The position numbers were made by a program, and so were the translations under genes. DNA of 64,000 nucleotides from an uncultured virus (IMG/VR IMGVR_UViG_3300037067_009972) (taxonomy: Duplodnaviria > Heunggongvirae > Uroviricota > Caudoviricetes), in the IMG/VR virus record IMGVR_UViG_3300037067_009972; one strand, given 5' to 3'. Under the pieces are notes generated by a model that did not search any database, had not been told where the DNA came from, and saw only the letters and a list, made by a program, of their open reading frames with translations. Shown here one piece after another: positions 26,492 to 58,343 of the stretch; within the stretch, counting starts at the first letter, position 1; every line of letters begins with the position of its first letter.

Positions 26492-26950
26492 GTGAAAAGA
26501 ATGGGTATGATATTACCGATAAATAAATATAATGATTCAACACAATTAAAAATACTAAAAACTCCGTGTAGTCGAAATAATATAAACGACGCAATAACAT
26601 TTGCCGCGGATTTATTAGAAACAGCAAAATCTCATAGTAACTGTGCTGGATTGGCCAGTAATCAACTATGGGCAACAGCAGAGCAACCGGCACCACATGT
26701 ATTTGTAGCATACGTTAGAGGAGGGTGGAAAGTTTTTATACACGCCAATTCTCAACGTTCAGGTAAACGTATACCTTTTGAAGAAGGATGTATGTCGAAA
26801 CCTGGCTATACAAAAAAGATTATTCGGCGGGAAATACTTACAATTTCGTATTATGATATAAAAGGCGAATATAAAAAAGAGGTGTATAGAGGAATAGAAG
26901 CTATAGTTCTTCAACACGAACTTGACCATATGAATGGCACGCTTATTTAA
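26492..26950 (+). CDS. def: peptide deformylase
   Basis: Motifs GLASNQ, EGCMS, QHELDH. Confidence 0.9.
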   Translation: MKRMGMILPINKYNDSTQLKILKTPCSRNNINDAITFAADLLETAKSHSNCAGLASNQLWATAEQPAPHVFVAYVRGGWKVFIHANSQRSGKRIPFEEGCMSKPGYTKKIIRREILTISYYDIKGEYKKEVYRGIEAIVLQHELDHMNGTLI

Positions 26951-28239: not shown

Positions 28240-29307
28240 ATGGATAACCTAACATTATATGCAATTGAGAAACTCGGTGCCAAGGTGTATTTCTTTGGTG
28301 AATGTGTCTGGGCGACAATATTAAAAATAAAAACTACACACTATAAAGTAGCTATCGTTGGCGGGGCGAGAGATAAAATTACCCCTCTACTCGATAATTA
28401 TGAAGTGCGGCCGGTAAAATTAACATTGCAAGTAAAAGACGGAGATGTACTTTATGAATTTTATTTCCCCAAAGATGTGGACAGTATACCGCTCGATCCT
28501 ATACCGCTTAACAATGCAATACTGAGTCTAGACGGAAAAGTATATAGAGCTGAAGATCTGCAAAATAAGACTATCCGTGCAGATATCTCCGTTTTTCTAG
28601 ATTACCCAGAAGAGTTATTACGAATATGTCGTATTGCGGCGCAAACAAAATTTACAGTAGATGTAACAACGTGGATTGCGATGTTAGCCCATTCAAGACT
28701 TATAAAAAATGTAATAAAATTTAATTCTAAATATATAGGACAACAACTTCATTTAATATTAATGTCGAGTTCTCCAAAAACAGGTTTTAATCTAATGCTG
28801 GAAACTGGATTGCTTAATTATATATTTCCAGAATTGGCCCAATGTAACAATATAAGTCAAACTCGCCGAGGGCTAGACACCAACGTATTTAAACATATAT
28901 TATTGGCTCTAGAAGCCGCAGAGTTAAATGAACTTATTAGGTGGACAATGTTATTTCATGATATGGCCAAACCAGCTGCATTGGAAATAACGACCGAGGG
29001 TAAAATGCATTTTTTTAAACACGAACAGCTCGGTGCCAAATTAGCAAACGACTATATGACCAAATACGGATTATCTAAAAGTTTAATAGACAAAGTAAAA
29101 CTACTAATAGAAAATCACATGTTTGACGCTGATCCTAAGTTAACTCCGAAGGGGGTTCGACGCTTAATCAAACGAGTTGGCGTGGAGCATATATTTGATC
29201 TCATTAAAGTACGTGAAGCCGATCGACAAGGTTCTCCGGTACCACCTTCTAACAGCAAAATCGAATTATTAAAATCGAAAATAGAAAAAGAGCTAGCCAA
29301 TGTTTAG
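28240..29307 (+). CDS. CCA-adding-enzyme-like protein with degenerate nucleotidyltransferase head and intact HD domain
   Basis: Body motifs LLNYIFPEL, VFKHILLAL, LFHDMAKP, HEQLGA, IENHM, ADRQG; head motif A reads FFGECVWATIL with no DxD. Confidence 0.75.
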   Translation: MDNLTLYAIEKLGAKVYFFGECVWATILKIKTTHYKVAIVGGARDKITPLLDNYEVRPVKLTLQVKDGDVLYEFYFPKDVDSIPLDPIPLNNAILSLDGKVYRAEDLQNKTIRADISVFLDYPEELLRICRIAAQTKFTVDVTTWIAMLAHSRLIKNVIKFNSKYIGQQLHLILMSSSPKTGFNLMLETGLLNYIFPELAQCNNISQTRRGLDTNVFKHILLALEAAELNELIRWTMLFHDMAKPAALEITTEGKMHFFKHEQLGAKLANDYMTKYGLSKSLIDKVKLLIENHMFDADPKLTPKGVRRLIKRVGVEHIFDLIKVREADRQGSPVPPSNSKIELLKSKIEKELANV

Positions 29308-49337: not shown

Positions 49338-49780
49338 CAATAAGGAGAAATAAATTGGATTTACGAGGACACGAACCAATTGAATTTGAAAATGAACTAC
49401 GTAAGGATCTACATATGAAACAAAAATTCGACGAAAATAAACAAGTATTAACTACAACTGATAGTCTAACTACGCTAATAGGTATCTTGGCCGGTGTAAC
49501 GCTTATTGGTGTGGGAGCAATTTATTTTATGTACAAACGAAAGGTAAAAGATAATGACCTTCAAAGAATTTCAACAAACACCGAGTTGGGGCACTAGGGC
49601 TATTTGTCCTAGATGTTTATCTAACAAAACCATGCCCTACCCAAACTGCGGTTGTCGCGCAGAAACAGGAGGGCGTGAACACATCATGAAATATCATCAT
49701 TGTTGCCCGTCGCCAAGCAAATTCTATGATGCGACTAACGATACAGACGTAATAGCTGCTTTAATTAACTCCGGAGTAAT

Positions 49781-52550: not shown

Positions 52551-54071
52551 ATGAAAAGATTATTTATTTGTTTATTGTTTTTAATATTAAGCTGTACTTT
52601 TGTTTCAGCACAAAATCAACAAATGGAAGTATACGGTTATCTAACTACATGGTCTTTACAAATGGGTAAAACCGTTTGGGCATCGTCTAATTATGAGAAC
52701 ATGCTTTATACAAATCTCGATAGAGAAGCTTGCACTCGTTATATAACCTTCAATGCAGACCTTAACGCAGACGGTACTATGAAAATGGCAAGTGATTGGT
52801 ATCCATCGCCAGGCAACACGGCATGGGGCAATCCTTATTTTCAAATACCTAAACGCAGATTTTTAAATAACTGGCTACATGAGGCAAATAAAGGCGTCGA
52901 ACTTTGTATATTTTTAGGAAGCAATTCTTCGGCGCTGCAAACAGATGCAGGAATTTCTGCTGTTATAAAAACAGTAGTAGATTCTGCTATTGGCGCTACT
53001 AATCGTTATGATGGGATCCATTGGGATATAGAACCCATGAATGTTGCCGATACTGCACAAGTGAGAAAACTTATCTCAAGATGTGCGGATACATTGGCTA
53101 AGTACCACCAATGGGCAGATGAATCTAAAAAGCCAACACAGTCGGTTGCAATTTATAATAATTTTCCTTTCTGGGGCCGAACAGACGTACATTCCAAACT
53201 AGATGCAATACTGCACATGAGTTACAATATGTACGGTAACTGGATGCCTATTGCTTGGTTTAATGCACCGGTGTATGAGACGGCATATGAATCGTCGGCT
53301 TATAATGTTGGATCGATTAAGGGCTATACTGAAAGCATATTAGCGTCTGGTGTGCCTAAAAATAAGTTAGTCATGGCTTGCCCGTTTAATTACAACGCAT
53401 TTCAGGGAGGTTTAACGACAACCGGCGAAGGAGTGTATGAACCATTTAAAACATGGACAACTTTCCCTAAGTGGTTAAACACAAACAACGAAATGTACTA
53501 TGATGCATGGAACAAATGGATTGATACTGCAACTACTACAATACATCAAGATCTCGTACGTAAGGCATGTTGGATAGGATATAATAACGAAGGCACCACC
53601 AATGATATGTATATATTATTTCAAGATACAATGTGTATTCGTGCAAATATCGAATATATTGCATCTACTGGAATTAAAGGTGCGATGATATGGGAAATAA
53701 CTGGTGCATATATTAACAATTTAAATCAAACCCGACATCCCGGAGTATCCAACGATCATATGTTACAGACAGTAAAAAAGGCTCGCTTAGCTTCGGTTTA
53801 CACTCCTTCCGCTGAGCCAATACCAACTATAGATACGACTAACTTATATAATGTCGGATTTACCGCAGGTAAAGCTAGTGTAAACATAGATTCTATTTTT
53901 ACAGCAGGGAAAAATAGTATAATATGGAATAACGTTTCATATGTATATGTAGCAAGTACGGTTTTTCCAGATACTGCTGTAGTATTACCACAGGGATCTC
54001 TTATTCTCACACAAACGCATAGTGCAACAAATAAGAAAACTACCCTTACGTTTTTGAAACCAAAGAAATAA
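52551..54071 (+). CDS. secreted GH18-family glycoside hydrolase (chitinase-like)
   Basis: Signal peptide; YDGIHWDIE catalytic motif; MSYNM; GVPKNKLVM; GAMIWEI. Confidence 0.8.
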   Translation: MKRLFICLLFLILSCTFVSAQNQQMEVYGYLTTWSLQMGKTVWASSNYENMLYTNLDREACTRYITFNADLNADGTMKMASDWYPSPGNTAWGNPYFQIPKRRFLNNWLHEANKGVELCIFLGSNSSALQTDAGISAVIKTVVDSAIGATNRYDGIHWDIEPMNVADTAQVRKLISRCADTLAKYHQWADESKKPTQSVAIYNNFPFWGRTDVHSKLDAILHMSYNMYGNWMPIAWFNAPVYETAYESSAYNVGSIKGYTESILASGVPKNKLVMACPFNYNAFQGGLTTTGEGVYEPFKTWTTFPKWLNTNNEMYYDAWNKWIDTATTTIHQDLVRKACWIGYNNEGTTNDMYILFQDTMCIRANIEYIASTGIKGAMIWEITGAYINNLNQTRHPGVSNDHMLQTVKKARLASVYTPSAEPIPTIDTTNLYNVGFTAGKASVNIDSIFTAGKNSIIWNNVSYVYVASTVFPDTAVVLPQGSLILTQTHSATNKKTTLTFLKPKK

Positions 54072-54082
54072 ATGTAATAAAT

Positions 54083-54218
54083 ATGAGGCCGTAGTACATT
54101 GTTCTCAATCAAAAACTCCCTATCGTTGGTTCAAATCCAACCATCGCTAAGATGTTGCGGTGTGGACTAGTCTGGTTAAGTCAGGAGTCCAAAAAACGGT
54201 GTACAATATTTGCCTCAT
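54083..54218 (+). tRNA. circularly permuted tRNA gene (3' half 54109-54149, 5' half 54156-54189); initiator-like body, probable anticodon CAA
   Basis: T arm and 3' acceptor strand come before the 5' acceptor strand and D arm; the two flanks pair with each other. Confidence 0.8.
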
Positions 54219-54224
54219 TTTTAC

Positions 54225-54295
54225 AGGTCGTAAAGGTTACGGTAGCCGGCAAGCCTCCAAATCTTGTAGACGGGGTTCAATTCCCCGACGACCTG
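54225..54295 (+). tRNA. tRNA-Trp(CCA)
   Basis: AGGTCGT/ACGACCT acceptor, G73, loop CTCCAAA. Confidence 0.8.
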
Positions 54296-54587
54296 CTATG
54301 TACGATGATTATCCTTTTTATACTCTGATCTTTACTGCCAATGACAGCAAAGGATTTATTACATTAACGTTATTGGAAGACGAAAATCATCCAATACCTA
54401 TTGCCATGTTTCCTTTTCAACAAAAAGAAACCGCAGAATTTATTTTATAACTTTTAAATAAAACAAAACATGGAATACCAATTTAATGTTAAAATCAAAA
54501 TGTTGCAACGCTAAAATTGTACAAAAGTTATGGTGCAAAATTTGTAGTAAATGTAGAACTGTTTTGCACGAAGAAAAAGACATTTAT

Positions 54588-54662
54588 GTCCAGTTACCCA
54601 AGCGATCTAAGGGAATAGTCCGCAAAACTATTAATTCGTGAGTTTGAATCTCACACTGGACT
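54588..54662 (+). tRNA. tRNA-Cys(GCA)
   Basis: ATAGT-CCGCAAA-ACTAT; U73; C33. Confidence 0.82.
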
Positions 54663-54685
54663 CAACTTTTACAAAAAGGACACAT

Positions 54686-55285
54686 ATGAAACCCACAGAA
54701 ATAGTAGTGATATTAGATAGATCCGGTTCAATGGCAGATTTCATATCTGACACTATCGGAGGTTATAACGCTTTTATCGAGGATCAAAAACGTATCCCGT
54801 ATGACGCTAAATTATCAACGATTTTATTCGACACAACGTACGAAAATTTTGAAGATAATGTTGATTTACAAAAAGCAATTCCACTTACACCTTTTATTTT
54901 CGTACCAAGGGGAGCAACTGCTTTATTAGATGCGATTGGCGATGCAATTAAAAAAATTGAAGAACGACAACCTGATCGTGTGATTATAGCAATAATTACT
55001 GATGGTCAAGAAAATGCAAGTCACAGATTTACTAAAGAGCAAATCAAAGAGATGATTGCAGCTAAAACGGCCGCTGGTTGGAGGATTGATTTCTTATCTG
55101 CCGACATAGATGCAATTAATGATGCAAAACGAAGTTATGGTATAGCTGCAAATCAGGTAATGACTTTTATGCCTACATCCGAGGGATTTGCGACAGCATA
55201 TCGCTCTATGTCTTGTTCTACAGTTAACTATAGAACCGGTATTAAAGACACAGATTTGAATGAACTTAAAGACACTCAGAAATGA
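54686..55285 (+). CDS. von Willebrand factor A domain protein
   Basis: MIDAS DRSGSM, TALLDAIG, ITDGQEN; start moved to the ATG after tRNA-Cys. Confidence 0.88.
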   Translation: MKPTEIVVILDRSGSMADFISDTIGGYNAFIEDQKRIPYDAKLSTILFDTTYENFEDNVDLQKAIPLTPFIFVPRGATALLDAIGDAIKKIEERQPDRVIIAIITDGQENASHRFTKEQIKEMIAAKTAAGWRIDFLSADIDAINDAKRSYGIAANQVMTFMPTSEGFATAYRSMSCSTVNYRTGIKDTDLNELKDTQK

Positions 55286-55292
55286 GTGTTAT

Positions 55293-55366
55293 GCGGGTAT
55301 CGCCTAGTAGGTATGGCACGACGCCTCCAACGTCGAATAAGGCGGGTTCGAGACCCGCTACCCGCT
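55293..55366 (+). tRNA. tRNA-Gly(TCC)
   Basis: CGACG-CCTCCAA-CGTCG; C33. Confidence 0.85.
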
Positions 55367-55370
55367 CAAT

Positions 55371-55868
55371 ATGACTCTCAAAGATGATATAGATTTACCA
55401 CTGGTAAATACAATCGCATATTTGAACCTATTAGGTGTCAAAACATTATGGTGTTGTTGTGGTTATAATTATAAAGATCAACCCACACATAAGTCTCACC
55501 AACTTGGGCAAGTAAATATTTCGATGGAAGCTTCGGAGTTAGCGGCAACTATGGGCGTACGACTCATATCGTGGAATCCGAATCTATTTTTAAAATATCA
55601 ACTAGTAGCCCCATCTTTAAGATCTTTTATTATATTTTGCGATATAATAAAATTTCACCCAAATTGGAATGAAACGTCCATGCATTATCATGAATTTCCC
55701 TCACAAATAATAAATGGCATAGAGAAAAATTTGTACTGTTTAAAAGATCAATTTGCCAACGAAACCATTTTAACAGACACAAATCAGACGTCTAAAGCAG
55801 AAAATCCTTATTGGGGTTATCCTGCGCGAGATTCATGGATAATTAAAAAAAGTGATTATATTAAATGA
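55371..55868 (+). CDS. hypothetical protein
   Basis: 165 aa; LNLLGVKTLWCCCG motif, weakly TYW3-like. Confidence 0.45.
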   Translation: MTLKDDIDLPLVNTIAYLNLLGVKTLWCCCGYNYKDQPTHKSHQLGQVNISMEASELAATMGVRLISWNPNLFLKYQLVAPSLRSFIIFCDIIKFHPNWNETSMHYHEFPSQIINGIEKNLYCLKDQFANETILTDTNQTSKAENPYWGYPARDSWIIKKSDYIK

Positions 55869-56188
55869 TAAAGCACATATTATTTCTCGACGATGAAAAG
55901 ATACCTGAATGGTTTGGTATCGTAGTTAATGACTTAGTAGACGTGGCAACGTCATATATTGAAGCAGTACGTTTAATAAACAACAATACTTACCAAATCA
56001 TGTATTTGGATCACGATATAGGTTCATCTACTAAAGACGGATCGATTATATTACAAAGGTATATGCAATTAGGCCGGCAAGTACCGCAAAAAGTTTACTG
56101 CATATCGTGGAATCCGGTTGGGGTAGAACGCATAAGATTAGTATGTGAAGATTGGAATATCCCGTTCGAAGCTATTGGGCGACTATAA
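55865..56188 (+). CDS. cyclic-phosphate-processing receiver-domain protein
   Basis: LFLDDEK...YLDHDIG...ISWNPVG pattern. Confidence 0.7.
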   Translation: MIKHILFLDDEKIPEWFGIVVNDLVDVATSYIEAVRLINNNTYQIMYLDHDIGSSTKDGSIILQRYMQLGRQVPQKVYCISWNPVGVERIRLVCEDWNIPFEAIGRL

Positions 56189-56227
56189 CACATAAATTTT
56201 CTATAATAGACGGACAAAGTGGTTAAT

Positions 56228-56299
56228 GCGGGCATAGTTCAGTGGTAGAATACGACTTTGCCAAAGTCGAGGTCGTGGGATCATGACCCACTGCCCGCT
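56228..56299 (+). tRNA. tRNA-Gly(GCC)
   Basis: CGACT-TTGCCAA-AGTCG. Confidence 0.85.
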
Positions 56300-56300
56300 C

Positions 56301-56555
56301 ATGATACAAATACTATATGTATTCGCAGCTGCGTTTGTATTGGGTTATGTTTATTCCCTTTATATAAGACGCACAGCTTCAGCTATCAAATTAAAAGAAC
56401 GTGCCTGGGCCTCAACAACGGGTTCAGCTTTATATGCATTAGGTGCGATTGTTGTTATATCATATGTTGGTAATCCCTGGTTATTAATACCCGCAGTAGT
56501 GGGAGATTGGTTGGGATCGTTTTTACAAATGACTTTAGATACAAGGAAAAAATAA
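56301..56555 (+). CDS. small membrane protein
   Basis: Three hydrophobic helices; ATG directly after tRNA-Gly. Confidence 0.55.
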   Translation: MIQILYVFAAAFVLGYVYSLYIRRTASAIKLKERAWASTTGSALYALGAIVVISYVGNPWLLIPAVVGDWLGSFLQMTLDTRKK

Positions 56556-57109
56556 TGCTATCGTTTTTATATATTATGTTTCAACATGTAATTATGAGTA
56601 TGTACGATTGCTGGCAAATGGCTAAAGCCGAATTAAAGTACTGGGAGTTAATAAAATATTTTTTGCAAAATAGTACTTATGCCGACAAGATAACGCTGTG
56701 CAATGAAATGAAAGAAGAAGCCTCAAATGCAACATCGATTGGTCAATTTTTGTTTTGGTATCTAAATATCATTGGAACATTAATGATATTCAGTATTTCA
56801 TGGCATGCATTATTGGTGCTCGGGTGTATAATGCTTTTACATTACACTGGTTTAGAAGATATACTGTTCTTTGTATGGGCTAATATAATACCACTGCCGA
56901 ATAGTTGGTGGGAATCACACAAAGATGTTCGTATTCTAGGTATACGTTTTCCTATAGAATTACCATGGTTAGCAAAGAACCGCACTATTGGTAATATAAC
57001 TATTGGGCGTGGACCTATTATATTCTTAACCGGCGAAGAAATAGACGCTGTACGATTAATAACATTGAATGTCAGTATAATCATTATTATGTTTATTGCA
57101 TTTCTATAA
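56555..57109 (+). CDS. membrane protein
   Basis: Hydrophobic ORF with GLEDILFF...LPW. Confidence 0.5.
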   Translation: MLSFLYIMFQHVIMSMYDCWQMAKAELKYWELIKYFLQNSTYADKITLCNEMKEEASNATSIGQFLFWYLNIIGTLMIFSISWHALLVLGCIMLLHYTGLEDILFFVWANIIPLPNSWWESHKDVRILGIRFPIELPWLAKNRTIGNITIGRGPIIFLTGEEIDAVRLITLNVSIIIIMFIAFL

Positions 57110-57116
57110 ATGCACT

Positions 57117-57190
57117 GCTCTCGTAATACAATTGAATAGTATACTTGTTTCCTAAACAGGAAGTTGTAGGTTTGAGTCCTACCGAGAGCA
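57117..57190 (+). tRNA. tRNA-Arg(CCT)
   Basis: CTTGT-TTCCTAA-ACAGG. Confidence 0.8.
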
Positions 57191-57218
57191 CTTCTAACAC
57201 AAAATAAAAAAGGATTAC

Positions 57219-58343
57219 ATGGATAAATCTAGGCAATGGGTAGCTTCTAAAGGTATTTATCACTATACAGAAATACCCGATGTATTTAAATCACTTCCAC
57301 CTCTCGTATATGAACTACAATTCGACAATTTTTCGGGTAGTTTCGTATTAGAAAAAATATGTGATAAATTTGAATTACCGGAAATTATGTATAATTTAGA
57401 AGATACTCTCATTAAAAGAGTTCTTAAAACATTTGAAAGTTACAATAAAAACTTTGGCATACTGTTAAAAGGTTTAAAAGGTACAGGCAAAACAATTGCT
57501 GCAAAAGTCATCTGCAATACATTGAACCTACCTGTTATACTTATTACAAAACCATGGAACGATATGGGAAATTTTGTAAACAGTATTCAGCAAGATATTG
57601 TTCTATTTTTCGATGAGTTCGAAAAGACCTACAGTTTTTATGAAAGCTTCCGAGGAGAAAGTAATGATGAACGCGAAGAAATAGAATCTCAAAATCAGAA
57701 TAATAGCAGTCCCAAAGATGTTACTAATTTATTAACTCTTATGGATGGTGTTTTTACATCAAAGTATAAGCGGTTATTTTTATTAACTACAAATAGAGAT
57801 TATCTTCCGGATGCTTTAATTGCGCGGCCTTCGCGTATACGATACATAAAAGAATTTAATGACTTACCTCTACCCGTGATCTTGCAAATTTTGGATAACT
57901 CTGTACACAACAAAGAACTTATACCGGGGTTAATCGACCTCTTAAAAAATCTTGAAATCATAACTGTTGATATAGTTAAAGCAATAGCGGAAGAAGCCAA
58001 TTTATTTAATACAGCAGAACCAGAATTCTTCGAAATATTTAATGTAAAACGCGTACATAATCATTATGATTTATACGAAATAGATACAAAAAGGCGTGAA
58101 AATGTAATCATCGAAAACAAGTTTTTCGACGTTATAATGCATTTTCGTAAAGGTTATAATTTGCATAACGATGAAGGTGAGTACATCGGTACAATTCAAA
58201 AACACAACCCCGAGACAAAAGAACTTACTGTAGTACTACAAACGGCGGGGAGGGCTGGCGGAGGAATTGCAAAGCCCGAAATTAAAACAATGTACTACCG
58301 CAAAACAATTATCCCGCATTTTGCTTTTTCACATTATGTGTAA
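57219..58343 (+). CDS. AAA+ ATPase
   Basis: GLKGTGKT, FFDEFEK, LLTLMDG, TTN, RPSRI. Confidence 0.9.
   Translation: MDKSRQWVASKGIYHYTEIPDVFKSLPPLVYELQFDNFSGSFVLEKICDKFELPEIMYNLEDTLIKRVLKTFESYNKNFGILLKGLKGTGKTIAAKVICNTLNLPVILITKPWNDMGNFVNSIQQDIVLFFDEFEKTYSFYESFRGESNDEREEIESQNQNNSSPKDVTNLLTLMDGVFTSKYKRLFLLTTNRDYLPDALIARPSRIRYIKEFNDLPLPVILQILDNSVHNKELIPGLIDLLKNLEIITVDIVKAIAEEANLFNTAEPEFFEIFNVKRVHNHYDLYEIDTKRRENVIIENKFFDVIMHFRKGYNLHNDEGEYIGTIQKHNPETKELTVVLQTAGRAGGGIAKPEIKTMYYRKTIIPHFAFSHYV

What the first reader, a model, noticed from the sequence alone, without database searches (positions are those of the whole stretch)
54083..54218. Circularly permuted tRNA gene in a phage, clamped by complementary flanks, with an initiator-like body
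Seen: the 3' half comes first (ACTCC-CTATC-GTTGG TTCAAAT CCAAC-CATCGC-T-A, to 54149). A 6-nt linker AGATGT follows, then the 5' half (T-GCGGTG-TG-GACT AGTCTGGTTA AGTC-A-GGAGT-C, 54156-54189). The outer flanks pair (GTACATTGTT/AACGGTGTAC and ATGAGGC/GCCTCAT), extending the anticodon stem past an internal loop. Known: permuted tRNA genes are described in some unicellular algae and in an archaeon, where a splicing endonuclease cuts at BHB motifs; I know of no phage example. No canonical BHB is visible here. The body carries formylation-type initiator determinants (1x72 mismatch, G2-C71, C3-G70, A11-U24, A73) but lacks the three anticodon-stem G-C pairs. Inference: joining at 32/33 or 33/34 gives anticodon CAA (reads UUG) on a short-variable-arm, fMet-like body. 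It could be a specialised initiator for UUG starts such as thyX, or an unspliced two-piece tRNA mimic or decoy.
Basis: partly seen in the sequence, partly recalled or inferred. Interest (0 to 1): 0.95.

Follow-up and report, generated by a model that had tools for sequence, protein, structure and literature searches.

The report
Phage Y RNA that mimics tRNA
The "circularly permuted tRNA" is real, but it is a YrlA-type Y RNA, a known class of small RNA that looks like a tRNA and partners the Ro60 protein, here sitting inside a phage's tRNA gene array.

Summary
At 54083-54218 (+) the arms come in the order variable region, T arm, closed acceptor-like hairpin, D arm. The two ends pair into an anticodon-stem-like helix that continues into a long interrupted helix (MFE -44 kcal/mol, z -4.96).

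This is the published architecture of YrlA, the bacterial and phage Y RNA that mimics tRNA and binds Ro60. A covariance model built only from three published phage YrlAs scores the element at 81.9 bits (E 8e-19). The next best match in the window scores 14.6 bits. A model built only from this element and one relative finds published YrlAs at their published coordinates.

The 5' strand carries GCCGUAG, a one-letter variant of the Ro60-binding motif GNCGAAG. Published CcrColossus YrlAs carry the same variant. Ten sequences give strong covariation.

The supposed anticodon CAA is not conserved in homologues, so a decoding tRNA is unlikely.

No Ro60 gene lies in the window. Two related phages with homologous RNAs encode Ro60 about 6 kb and 100 kb away.

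Verdict: new member of a known kind. The unusual points are its position in a tRNA array far from Ro60, and a tRNA-like body that differs between co-occurring phage variants.

The parts
54078..54226 (+). Whole YrlA-class RNA as matched by the covariance models
   Evidence: R2, built from published YrlAs only, scores it 81.9 bits, E 7.9e-19, over model positions 1-146. R1 gives 177 bits, but the element is one of R1's two training sequences.
54083..54089 (+). Outer helix, 5' strand (ATGAGGC). It pairs with 54212-54218.
   Evidence: All 7 pairs of this helix change on both sides across the 10 sequences.
54088..54094 (+). GCCGTAG, a one-letter variant of the YrlA 5' motif GNCGAAN0-1G (proposed Ro60 contact)
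   Evidence: Motif definition from PMC4201824. L006 and L014 carry the same GCCGUAG. L003 carries GCCGAAG. Published CcrColossus YrlAs carry GGCGUAG.
54094..54103 (+). Inner helix, 5' strand (GTACATTGTT). It pairs with 54195-54204.
   Evidence: Helices 2 and 3 are 97.1% and 90.9% paired.
54104..54114 (+). Internal loop, 5' side (CTCAATCAAAA).
   Evidence: Not conserved as an anticodon. GUUNUCAA is shared with L003 and L006 and resembles GGUUAUCAA in a Bxz1 Y RNA beside Ro60.
54115..54119 (+). Anticodon-stem-like helix, 3' strand (ACTCC). It pairs with 54184-54188.
   Evidence: Helix 4: all 5 pairs change on both sides.
54120..54124 (+). Variable region (CTATC). C48 is the partner of G15.
   Evidence: Direct reading.
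54125..54141 (+). T arm (GTTGG TTCAAAT CCAAC)
   Evidence: Rfam tRNA model positions 46-63 match here. This is helix 5, 100% paired.
54142..54162 (+). Closed acceptor-like hairpin (CATCGC / loop TAAGATGTT / GCGGTG): 6 standard pairs plus U.U
   Evidence: Helix 6: all 6 pairs change on both sides.
54163..54183 (+). U8 G9, D arm (GACT AGTCTGGTTA AGTC) and A26
   Evidence: This is helix 7, 97.5% paired.
54184..54188 (+). Anticodon-stem-like helix, 5' strand (GGAGT)
54189..54194 (+). Internal loop, 3' side (CCAAAA)
54195..54204 (+). Inner helix, 3' strand (AACGGTGTAC)
54212..54218 (+). Outer helix, 3' strand (GCCTCAT), preceded by the conserved ATTTGC
54226..54294 (+). tRNA-Trp(CCA) gene directly downstream. 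RNase P cutting at its 5' end would set the 3' end of the Y RNA (inferred).
   Evidence: Rfam tRNA 30.4 bits. A tRNA-Trp also follows the homologous RNA in L003 and L006.

Best explanation
The element is a YrlA-class Y RNA: a small non-coding RNA whose 5' and 3' ends pair into a long interrupted helix. That helix carries the proposed Ro60-binding motif, here GCCGUAG. The rest folds as a tRNA look-alike with a variable region, T arm, closed acceptor-like hairpin, D arm and an anticodon-stem-like helix, but with no anticodon loop and no free CCA end.

How it most likely works:
- Shown: the fold, the homology to published YrlAs, and the covariation.
- Inferred: it is transcribed on the + strand together with the phage's tRNA array. 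RNase P cutting at the 5' end of the tRNA-Trp that starts at 54226 trims its 3' side.
- Inferred: it binds a phage-encoded Ro60 whose gene lies outside this 64-kb window.
- By analogy with Deinococcus and Salmonella, not tested here: the RNA gates Ro60 or tethers it to a partner such as an exoribonuclease. The tRNA-like module would offer a docking surface for tRNA-binding enzymes.

It does not decode.
For: 1. Model from published sequences. R2 was built only from three published phage YrlAs (two from CcrColossus, one from Bacillus phage G; Table S2 of PMC4201824). It scores the element 81.9 bits, E 7.9e-19, full length. The next best matches in the window score 14.6 and 13.7 bits. None of the 28 tRNA genes gives a full-length match. 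The held-out published Bxz1 YrlA scores 51 bits at its published place.
2. Reverse test. R1 was built only from the window element and L006. It finds published YrlAs at their published coordinates: CcrColossus at 35 bits (E 4e-7), phage G at 25.7 bits (E 7.8e-5), and a second CcrColossus copy at E 0.0065.
3. Motif. GCCGUAG sits at the start of the 5' strand. Homologues carry GCCGUAG or GCCGAAG, and published CcrColossus YrlAs carry GGCGUAG.
4. Covariation on 10 sequences. 95.4% of cells are paired, 33 of 37 pairs change on both sides, 0 of 500 shuffles reach this, and slid controls reach at most 49.8%.
5. Ro60 in relatives. G001 is a complete 215-kb phage that is colinear with window 45.8-57 kb. 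It has a homologous RNA (72.3 bits) and a full Ro60 (TROVE 5e-38, vWA_Ro60 1.8e-54). G003 has a homologous RNA (54.1 bits) and a TROVE ORF about 6 kb away on the same strand.
6. Conservation pattern. The flanks are nearly identical between the window and L006 while the T arm and acceptor differ. That is expected if the helix is the constrained protein-binding part.
7. Literature. Published papers describe YrlA as resembling a circularly permuted tRNA.
Against: - No Ro60 gene is in the window. Pfam found none in 62 proteins: 61 of the 81 ORFs of 70 aa or more plus one other, with the 20 left out all 161 aa or shorter. tblastn with three phage Ro60 proteins gave a best E of 0.57. The published operational criterion of lying within 4 kb of Ro60 is therefore not met, and whether this phage has Ro60 at all is unknown.
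- In G001 the RNA is about 100 kb from Ro60.
- G002, a 26-kb fragment estimated 12% complete, has no TROVE match.
- The motif departs from the literal consensus at one position (U for A).
- R2's alignment and structure were laid out with R1, which derives from the window. R2 is therefore independent in its letters but not in its architecture.
- The alignment used for the pair counts was fitted to the model.
- R1 did not detect the Bxz1 YrlA (4.2 bits).
- No expression or binding data exist.
Confidence: 0.85

Rival explanations
1. It is a true circularly permuted tRNA gene. The flank helix is cut and the ends are ligated in the anticodon loop. RNase P and a 3' nuclease then open the acceptor hairpin, CCA is added, and a decoding tRNA results (anticodon CAA, perhaps an initiator for UUG).
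For: - Re-ordered halves pass ARAGORN as a tRNA at all 8 junctions tried.
- The body has canonical D- and T-loop letters and acceptor and D-stem features like an initiator.
- The phage has a CCA-adding-enzyme-like ORF at 28240-29307.
- ARAGORN and Rfam call no tRNA-Met in the window.
Against: - The anticodon is set by an arbitrary junction: CAA at 3 junctions, AAA at 5.
- The loop letters are not conserved in L006 or L003.
- The L006 copy has an 8-nt T loop.
- 7 of 10 YrlA-class RNAs pass the same re-ordering test with unrelated anticodons.
- No bulge-helix-bulge motif is visible.
- Wang et al. state that bacteria have no reported equivalent of the splicing endonuclease.
- A tRNA-Leu(CAA) already exists at 49255-49338.
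- The conserved part is the flank helix with its Ro60 motif, not the body.
Confidence: 0.03
2. It is a tRNA mimic that acts without Ro60. For example, it could be a decoy or sponge for a host tRNA-binding factor (a modification enzyme, formyltransferase or tRNA-targeting defence nuclease), with the flank helix serving only for stability. It might act after RNase P cutting and CCA addition, as a two-piece molecule.
For: - No Ro60 lies in 64 kb.
- The RNA sits in the tRNA array, not beside Ro60, in the window, G001 and G003.
- The tRNA-like body differs between co-occurring variants while the flanks stay the same.
- M. smegmatis YrlA is cut by RNase P and gains CCA (PMC4201824).
- L003 encodes ACC, and phage G encodes ACCA, right after the acceptor 3' strand.
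Against: - The most conserved letters are the Ro60-type motif and its partner strand.
- Both relatives with enough sequence encode Ro60.
- The window copy has only 6 standard acceptor pairs and no encoded CCA. Wang et al. predict that most YrlA acceptor stems are poor RNase P substrates.
Confidence: 0.09
3. It is a decayed remnant of a tandem tRNA duplication, or an assembly artefact, with no function.
For: - X2's contigs and contig L013 both end at about 54148-54150.
- The T arm and acceptor strands are identical to those of a normal tRNA-Met gene in L001 and L002.
Against: - The same topology occurs at the same syntenic place in G001 and G002, which differ widely in sequence and show compensating changes.
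- The fold z-score is -4.96.
- It scores 81.9 bits against a model of published YrlAs.
Confidence: 0.02

Closest known systems
YrlA (Y RNA-like A) of bacteria and phages: Salmonella Typhimurium, M. smegmatis, mycobacteriophage Bxz1/ET08, Caulobacter phage CcrColossus, Bacillus phage G
   Same: - The 5' and 3' ends pair into a long helix.
- A GNCG(A/U)AG motif sits near the 5' end.
- The order is V, T arm, closed acceptor-like hairpin, D arm.
- The letters for tRNA tertiary contacts are present.
- The models match in both directions.
- The 6-bp acceptor hairpin is like that of the Salmonella RNA.
   Different: - It is not next to Ro60. None lies in the window, and relatives have it about 6 kb and 100 kb away, against 4 kb or less in the published set.
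- It is embedded in a tRNA array, 7 nt upstream of tRNA-Trp.
- It has a regular 5-bp anticodon-stem-like helix and no separate V hairpin.
- The motif has U at the fifth position, as in CcrColossus.
- The host is uncultured. The DNA is seen in groundwater and landfill metagenome runs.
Circularly permuted tRNA genes of Cyanidioschyzon merolae and other algae, and of an archaeon (recalled from memory and from the discussion in bioRxiv 10.1101/312249)
   Same: The 3' half lies upstream of the 5' half. The acceptor is initially a closed loop. The ends pair to extend the anticodon stem.
   Different: No bulge-helix-bulge motif is visible, the anticodon loop is not conserved, and a Ro60-type motif sits in the flank helix. 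No splicing endonuclease is known in bacteria.
Metazoan and Deinococcus Y RNAs (Ro60-bound)
   Same: The terminal helix has a conserved 5'-strand motif. GGUCCGA in Xenopus is quoted; here the stretch reads GGCCGUA. The RNA is modular: a Ro60-binding stem plus an effector module.
   Different: The effector module here is a complete tRNA-like domain. Binding is not tested.
Two-piece (permuted) tmRNA
   Same: It is a permuted gene order of a tRNA-like domain.
   Different: ARAGORN, which searches for tmRNA, reports none. A full D arm is present, and there is no tag reading frame and no encoded CCA.

Membership tests
YrlA-class Y RNA | The 5' and 3' ends pair into a long helix | tested here: met
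   The MFE structure pairs 54083-54103 with 54195-54218. Helices 1-3 are 90.9-97.1% paired across the 10 sequences.
YrlA-class Y RNA | GNCGAAN0-1G motif near the 5' end (proposed Ro60 contact) | tested here: met
   GCCGUAG lies at 54088-54094. It departs from the literal consensus at one letter (U for A). The same GNCGUAG form occurs in all three published CcrColossus YrlAs and in L006 and L014. L003 has the exact GCCGAAG.
YrlA-class Y RNA | tRNA-like domain in the order (V) - T arm - closed acceptor-like stem-loop - D arm | tested here: met
   Direct reading. The order is as described in PMC4201824 and bioRxiv 10.1101/312249.
YrlA-class Y RNA | Letters for tRNA tertiary contacts, including the 15:48 Levitt pair | tested here: met
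   U8, A14, G15 with C48, G18G19, U54 U55 C56, A58 and G53-C61 are all present.
YrlA-class Y RNA | Scores against a covariance model of accepted members | tested here: met
   R2, built from three published phage YrlAs, gives 81.9 bits, E 7.9e-19. The held-out Bxz1 YrlA gives 51 bits. Rfam holds no model that finds the published YrlAs either.
YrlA-class Y RNA | Encoded within about 4 kb of Ro60 on the same strand (operational criterion of Chen et al. 2014) | tested here: not met
   No TROVE in the window. In relatives Ro60 is about 6 kb away (G003, same strand) and about 100 kb away (G001). The G001 Ro60 region has no counterpart in the window.
YrlA-class Y RNA | Bound by Ro60/Rsr; modified by TruB and DusA | not testable with these tools
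   This needs immunoprecipitation and modification mapping. No RNA run is listed for this DNA.
Permuted tRNA gene (algal/archaeal type) | 3' half upstream of the 5' half, and the re-ordered sequence is a valid tRNA | tested here: met
   ARAGORN calls a tRNA at 8 of 8 junctions. However, 7 of 10 YrlA-class RNAs pass too.
Permuted tRNA gene (algal/archaeal type) | A defined junction giving a conserved 7-nt anticodon loop and anticodon | tested here: not met
   The anticodon is CAA or AAA depending on the junction. The letters before the stem differ in L006 and L003.
Permuted tRNA gene (algal/archaeal type) | Bulge-helix-bulge motif at the junction and a splicing endonuclease in the cell | tested here: inconclusive
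   No 3-nt bulge / 4-bp helix / 3-nt bulge is seen. The internal loop is 11 nt against 6 nt. The host is unknown, so its enzymes cannot be checked.
Two-piece tmRNA | tRNA-Ala-like acceptor with G3:U70, a tag reading frame, and detection by ARAGORN | tested here: not met
   ARAGORN reports no tmRNA. The acceptor has C3-G70.

The most novel reading that the evidence does not exclude
The tRNA-like module of these phage Y RNAs may be an exchangeable cassette that mimics one particular tRNA. Co-occurring phage variants keep the Ro60-type helix almost letter for letter but carry different T-arm and acceptor modules. The window's module has initiator-type acceptor and D-stem features, and its T arm and acceptor are identical to those of a phage tRNA-Met(CAU). 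Because the RNA is transcribed inside the tRNA array, RNase P might open it and CCA might be added. L003 and phage G encode ACC or ACCA after the acceptor strand. The result would be a two-piece, CCA-ended initiator look-alike on Ro60 that titrates or recruits a tRNA-specific host factor or defence nuclease.
Probability: 0.12. Interest if true: 0.65.

Novelty: new member of a known kind. Interest (0 to 1): 0.3.

Why it matters
- It explains a striking "permuted tRNA" without invoking a new RNA-processing pathway.
- Automatic annotation leaves YrlA RNAs unnamed. Rfam 15 finds neither this one nor the published phage YrlAs.
- The published search rule (within 4 kb of Ro60) would miss YrlAs that sit in tRNA arrays far from Ro60, as in these uncultured large phages. 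Ro60/Y RNA systems in phages may therefore be undercounted.
- What Ro60 and Y RNA do for a phage is still unknown. A family in which the tRNA-like body varies while the helix stays fixed offers a natural experiment on what the tRNA-like domain is for.

Tried and rejected
- The window's own genome is not held.
- GenBank phages: megablast of 53500-55500 and blastn of the element found no match.
- IMG/VR searches with the neighbouring VWA and GH18 proteins found no relatives. NAPRTase gave one, L003.
- Exact 20-nt T-arm/acceptor pattern: it hit only a normal tRNA-Met in L001 and L002. By my rough estimate, some tRNA in a collection of that size could share these roughly 12 free letters by chance. 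I draw no origin claim from it.
- Degenerate patterns:
  - One search gave 6 loci: 3 real (L008 and L012 repeat L003 and L006; L009 was new) and 3 chance hits in coding sequence.
  - One search gave 11 metagenome loci: 3 real (L013 matches the window, L014 matches L009, L017 matches L003) and 8 chance hits.
- Earlier findings of this scan: nothing on record.
- No RNA holder is listed among public runs.
- RtcB: none in G001 or G002. L014 was not searched.
- The neighbouring VWA protein is not like Ro60's vWA domain (E 0.92).
- Promoter and terminator scan of 53700-54700: counts are at the level of shuffles.
- R1 with filters off over the whole window: no second or stem-only Y-like RNA at E of 0.1 or lower.
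- MAFFT misaligned L003's 102-nt acceptor-loop insert. I used model-based alignment instead.
- Literature: 'YrlA' with 'phage' gave 6 papers, and 'permuted tRNA' with 'bacteriophage' gave 6 (5 listed). From the listings alone, none is about YrlA in phage tRNA arrays.

Full report
**The window.** The window is AT-rich (36.7% G+C) phage DNA. It has structural genes on the minus strand and a long plus-strand tRNA array. ARAGORN tRNAs. Rfam adds three more, at 41108, 42412 and 54226. Neither tool calls anything at 54083-54218.

- Reading the sequence gives, 5' to 3':
  - ATGAGGC (54083-54089);
  - GTACATTGTT (54094-54103);
  - an 11-nt loop strand;
  - ACTCC;
  - a 5-nt variable region;
  - a canonical T arm (GTTGG TTCAAAT CCAAC);
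  - CATCGC, a 9-nt loop and GCGGTG;
  - TG;
  - a canonical D arm (GACT AGTCTGGTTA AGTC);
  - A;
  - GGAGT;
  - a 6-nt loop strand;
  - AACGGTGTAC;
  - GCCTCAT (54212-54218).
It has -44 kcal/mol against -27.3 +/- 3.4 for 200 shuffles, and none of the shuffles does as well.
- Rfam sees only the T arm (13.3 bits).

**What this topology is.**
- Chen et al. 2014 (PMC4201824; passages and Table S2 read) describe YrlA, a Y RNA bound by the bacterial Ro60 protein.
  - Its ends form a stem, and a GNCGAAN0-1G motif sits near the 5' end.
  - The rest is a tRNA-like domain in the order V, T, acceptor-like stem-loop, D.
  - They report it in 254 bacteria and 22 phages.
- Wang et al. 2018 (bioRxiv 10.1101/312249; passages read) solved the Salmonella domain.
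  - They compare YrlAs with the permuted algal pre-tRNAs.
- The window element has GCCGUAG at 54088-54094, one letter from the motif.

**Relatives.**
- A NAPRTase search gave L003, from a complete 215-kb IMG/VR phage, G001.
  - It is colinear with window 45.8-57 kb at about 40-70% amino-acid identity.
  - Between NAPRTase and tRNA-Trp it holds the same kind of element with very different letters: GCCGAAG, ACTGT/ACAGT, T arm GTAGG TCCGAAT CCTAC, a 7-bp acceptor followed by ACC, a roughly 100-nt insert in the acceptor loop, and D arm GCTC AGTCGGTA GAGC.
- Pattern scans added two more records.
  - L006 comes from G002, a 26-kb fragment about 70-79% identical in DNA to the window.
  - L009/L014 comes from G003.
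- L006 keeps the window's flanks almost exactly but has another T arm, with an 8-nt loop, and another acceptor hairpin with compensating changes.
- Contigs of runs X1 and X3 show the window form and the L006 form side by side: the same flanks, with 83 other letters between 54120 and 54207.

**Membership tests, both directions.**
- R1 was built only from the window and L006, then run on three GenBank phage loci fetched at the published coordinates. Of the 5 published intervals examined:

| Published YrlA | R1 result |
|---|---|
| CcrColossus L026:2815-2966 | 35 bits, E 4e-7, full length |
| Phage G L025:1691-1855 | 25.7 bits, E 7.8e-5, full length |
| CcrColossus L026:2319-2463 | 17.9 bits, E 0.0065, full length |
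| CcrColossus third published interval | partial match, E 0.21 |
| Bxz1 | not significant (4.2 bits) |

- R2 was built only from the three full-length matches above. Searched with filters off over 96,318 bases, it gave:
  - window 54078-54226 at 81.9 bits (E 7.9e-19), with the next window matches at 14.6 and 13.7 bits;
  - L006 at 73.4 bits, plus a second tandem copy at 61.7 bits;
  - L003 at 72.3 bits and L014 at 54.1 bits;
  - the held-out published Bxz1 YrlA at 51 bits.
- Caveat: R2's alignment and structure were laid out by R1. Its letters are independent of the window, but its architecture is not.
- Rfam 15 finds none of the published YrlAs, so its silence on the window element is expected.

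**Covariation.** Ten model-aligned sequences give 95.4% standard pairs. 33 of 37 pairs change on both sides, 0 of 500 shuffles reach this, and partners slid by 1-3 columns reach at most 49.8%. The alignment is fitted to the structure, which favours it.

**Against a decoding tRNA.**
- Re-ordered halves pass ARAGORN at all 8 junctions. The anticodon is CAA at 3 junctions and AAA at 5.
- The same re-ordering makes 7 of 10 YrlA-class RNAs 'tRNAs' with unrelated anticodons. The proposed re-ordering test therefore does not discriminate.
- The letters before the stem are not conserved among homologues.
- A tRNA-Leu(CAA) already exists at 49255.

**Ro60.**
- None is in the window.
  - Pfam found none in 62 proteins.
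  - tblastn with three phage Ro60s gave a best E of 0.57.
- G001 encodes a full Ro60: 596 aa, with TROVE and vWA_Ro60 domains.
  - Its gene lies about 100 kb from G001's only YrlA-like RNA.
  - That part of G001 has no counterpart in the window (0 tblastx matches).
- G003 has a TROVE ORF about 6 kb from its YrlA-like RNA on the same strand. That RNA lies inside an array of 27 tRNAs.
- G002, estimated 12% complete, has none.
- L035, another contig, carries a Ro60 that is 71% identical to G001's.
- That the window's phage has Ro60 is an inference from these relatives. It is not shown.

**Mechanism.**
- Shown: the fold, the homology and the covariation.
- Inferred:
  - co-transcription with the tRNA array, since no promoter or terminator signal rises above chance;
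  - a 3' end set by RNase P cutting at tRNA-Trp (54226);
  - binding of Ro60 through the GCCGUAG helix.
- By analogy only: gating Ro60 or tethering it to a nuclease.
- Whether the 6-bp acceptor hairpin is opened by RNase P, as in M. smegmatis, is open.

**Verdict.** This is a new member of the YrlA class. It is notable for its place in a tRNA array far from Ro60, and for a tRNA-like body that differs between co-occurring variants.

Noticed in passing
window 54226-54294: A tRNA-Trp(CCA) gene that ARAGORN misses and Rfam scores just above threshold (30.4 against 29 bits). Its D stem has non-standard pairs.
   Followed up: partly
window 42412-42502: An Rfam tRNA match (44 bits) with 24 extra letters in the anticodon loop. 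ARAGORN does not call it. It could be a small intron or a disrupted gene.
   Followed up: no
window 41108-41180: An Rfam tRNA match (54.5 bits) that ARAGORN misses. The loop CUUUCAC reads as tRNA-Glu(UUC).
   Followed up: partly
window 43697-44167: A 156-aa ORF matches only the C-terminal half of release factor 1 (RF-1 domain 8.6e-26; NCBIfam prfA positions 183-337). It lies inside the tRNA array.
   Followed up: no
window 54638-58343: Genes downstream of the RNA: a VWA protein, a cREC_REC 'cyclic-phosphate processing receiver' domain protein (55865-56188) and an AAA ATPase. VWA and cREC_REC are syntenic in G001. This may be an RNA-repair-type neighbourhood.
   Followed up: partly
L006:439-590: A second YrlA-like RNA lies directly upstream of the first (61.7 bits with R2). 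It is of the L003 type, so this phage carries two types in tandem. The window has only one.
   Followed up: partly
L014:5684-5759 and L014:5181-5254 (minus strand): Two short RNAs have the same GCCGUAG helix but only an 18-20-nt loop in place of the tRNA-like domain (24 and 19.6 bits with R1). They resemble YrlB and lie between tRNA genes.
   Followed up: partly
L034:8593-8668, L035:4181-4257, L004:21-110: Weak stem-only Y-like candidates (E 0.09, 0.09 and 0.19) lie 1-3 kb upstream of Ro60 on the same strand in G001 and in the L035 contig. The G001 and L035 copies show compensating changes between them.
   Followed up: no
L001:2345-2421 and L002: A normal tRNA-Met(CAT) gene has a T arm plus acceptor 3' strand (23 nt) and an acceptor 5' strand (7 nt) identical to those of the window element, and also has A11-U24. 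This could reflect exchange with a tRNA gene, or chance.
   Followed up: partly
L026 (Caulobacter phage CcrColossus): Two further YrlA-like matches are not in the published table: 2146-2304 (46.3 bits with R2) and 1994-2132 (13.5 bits with R1). GenBank annotates a tRNA-Gln at 2718-2785, inside a published YrlA interval.
   Followed up: no
window 28240-29307: An ORF resembles the CCA-adding enzyme (PolyA_pol_RNAbd plus HD domains; NCBIfam CCA tRNA nucleotidyltransferase 3e-26, far below the cut-off). A peptide deformylase lies at 26492-26950.
   Followed up: no
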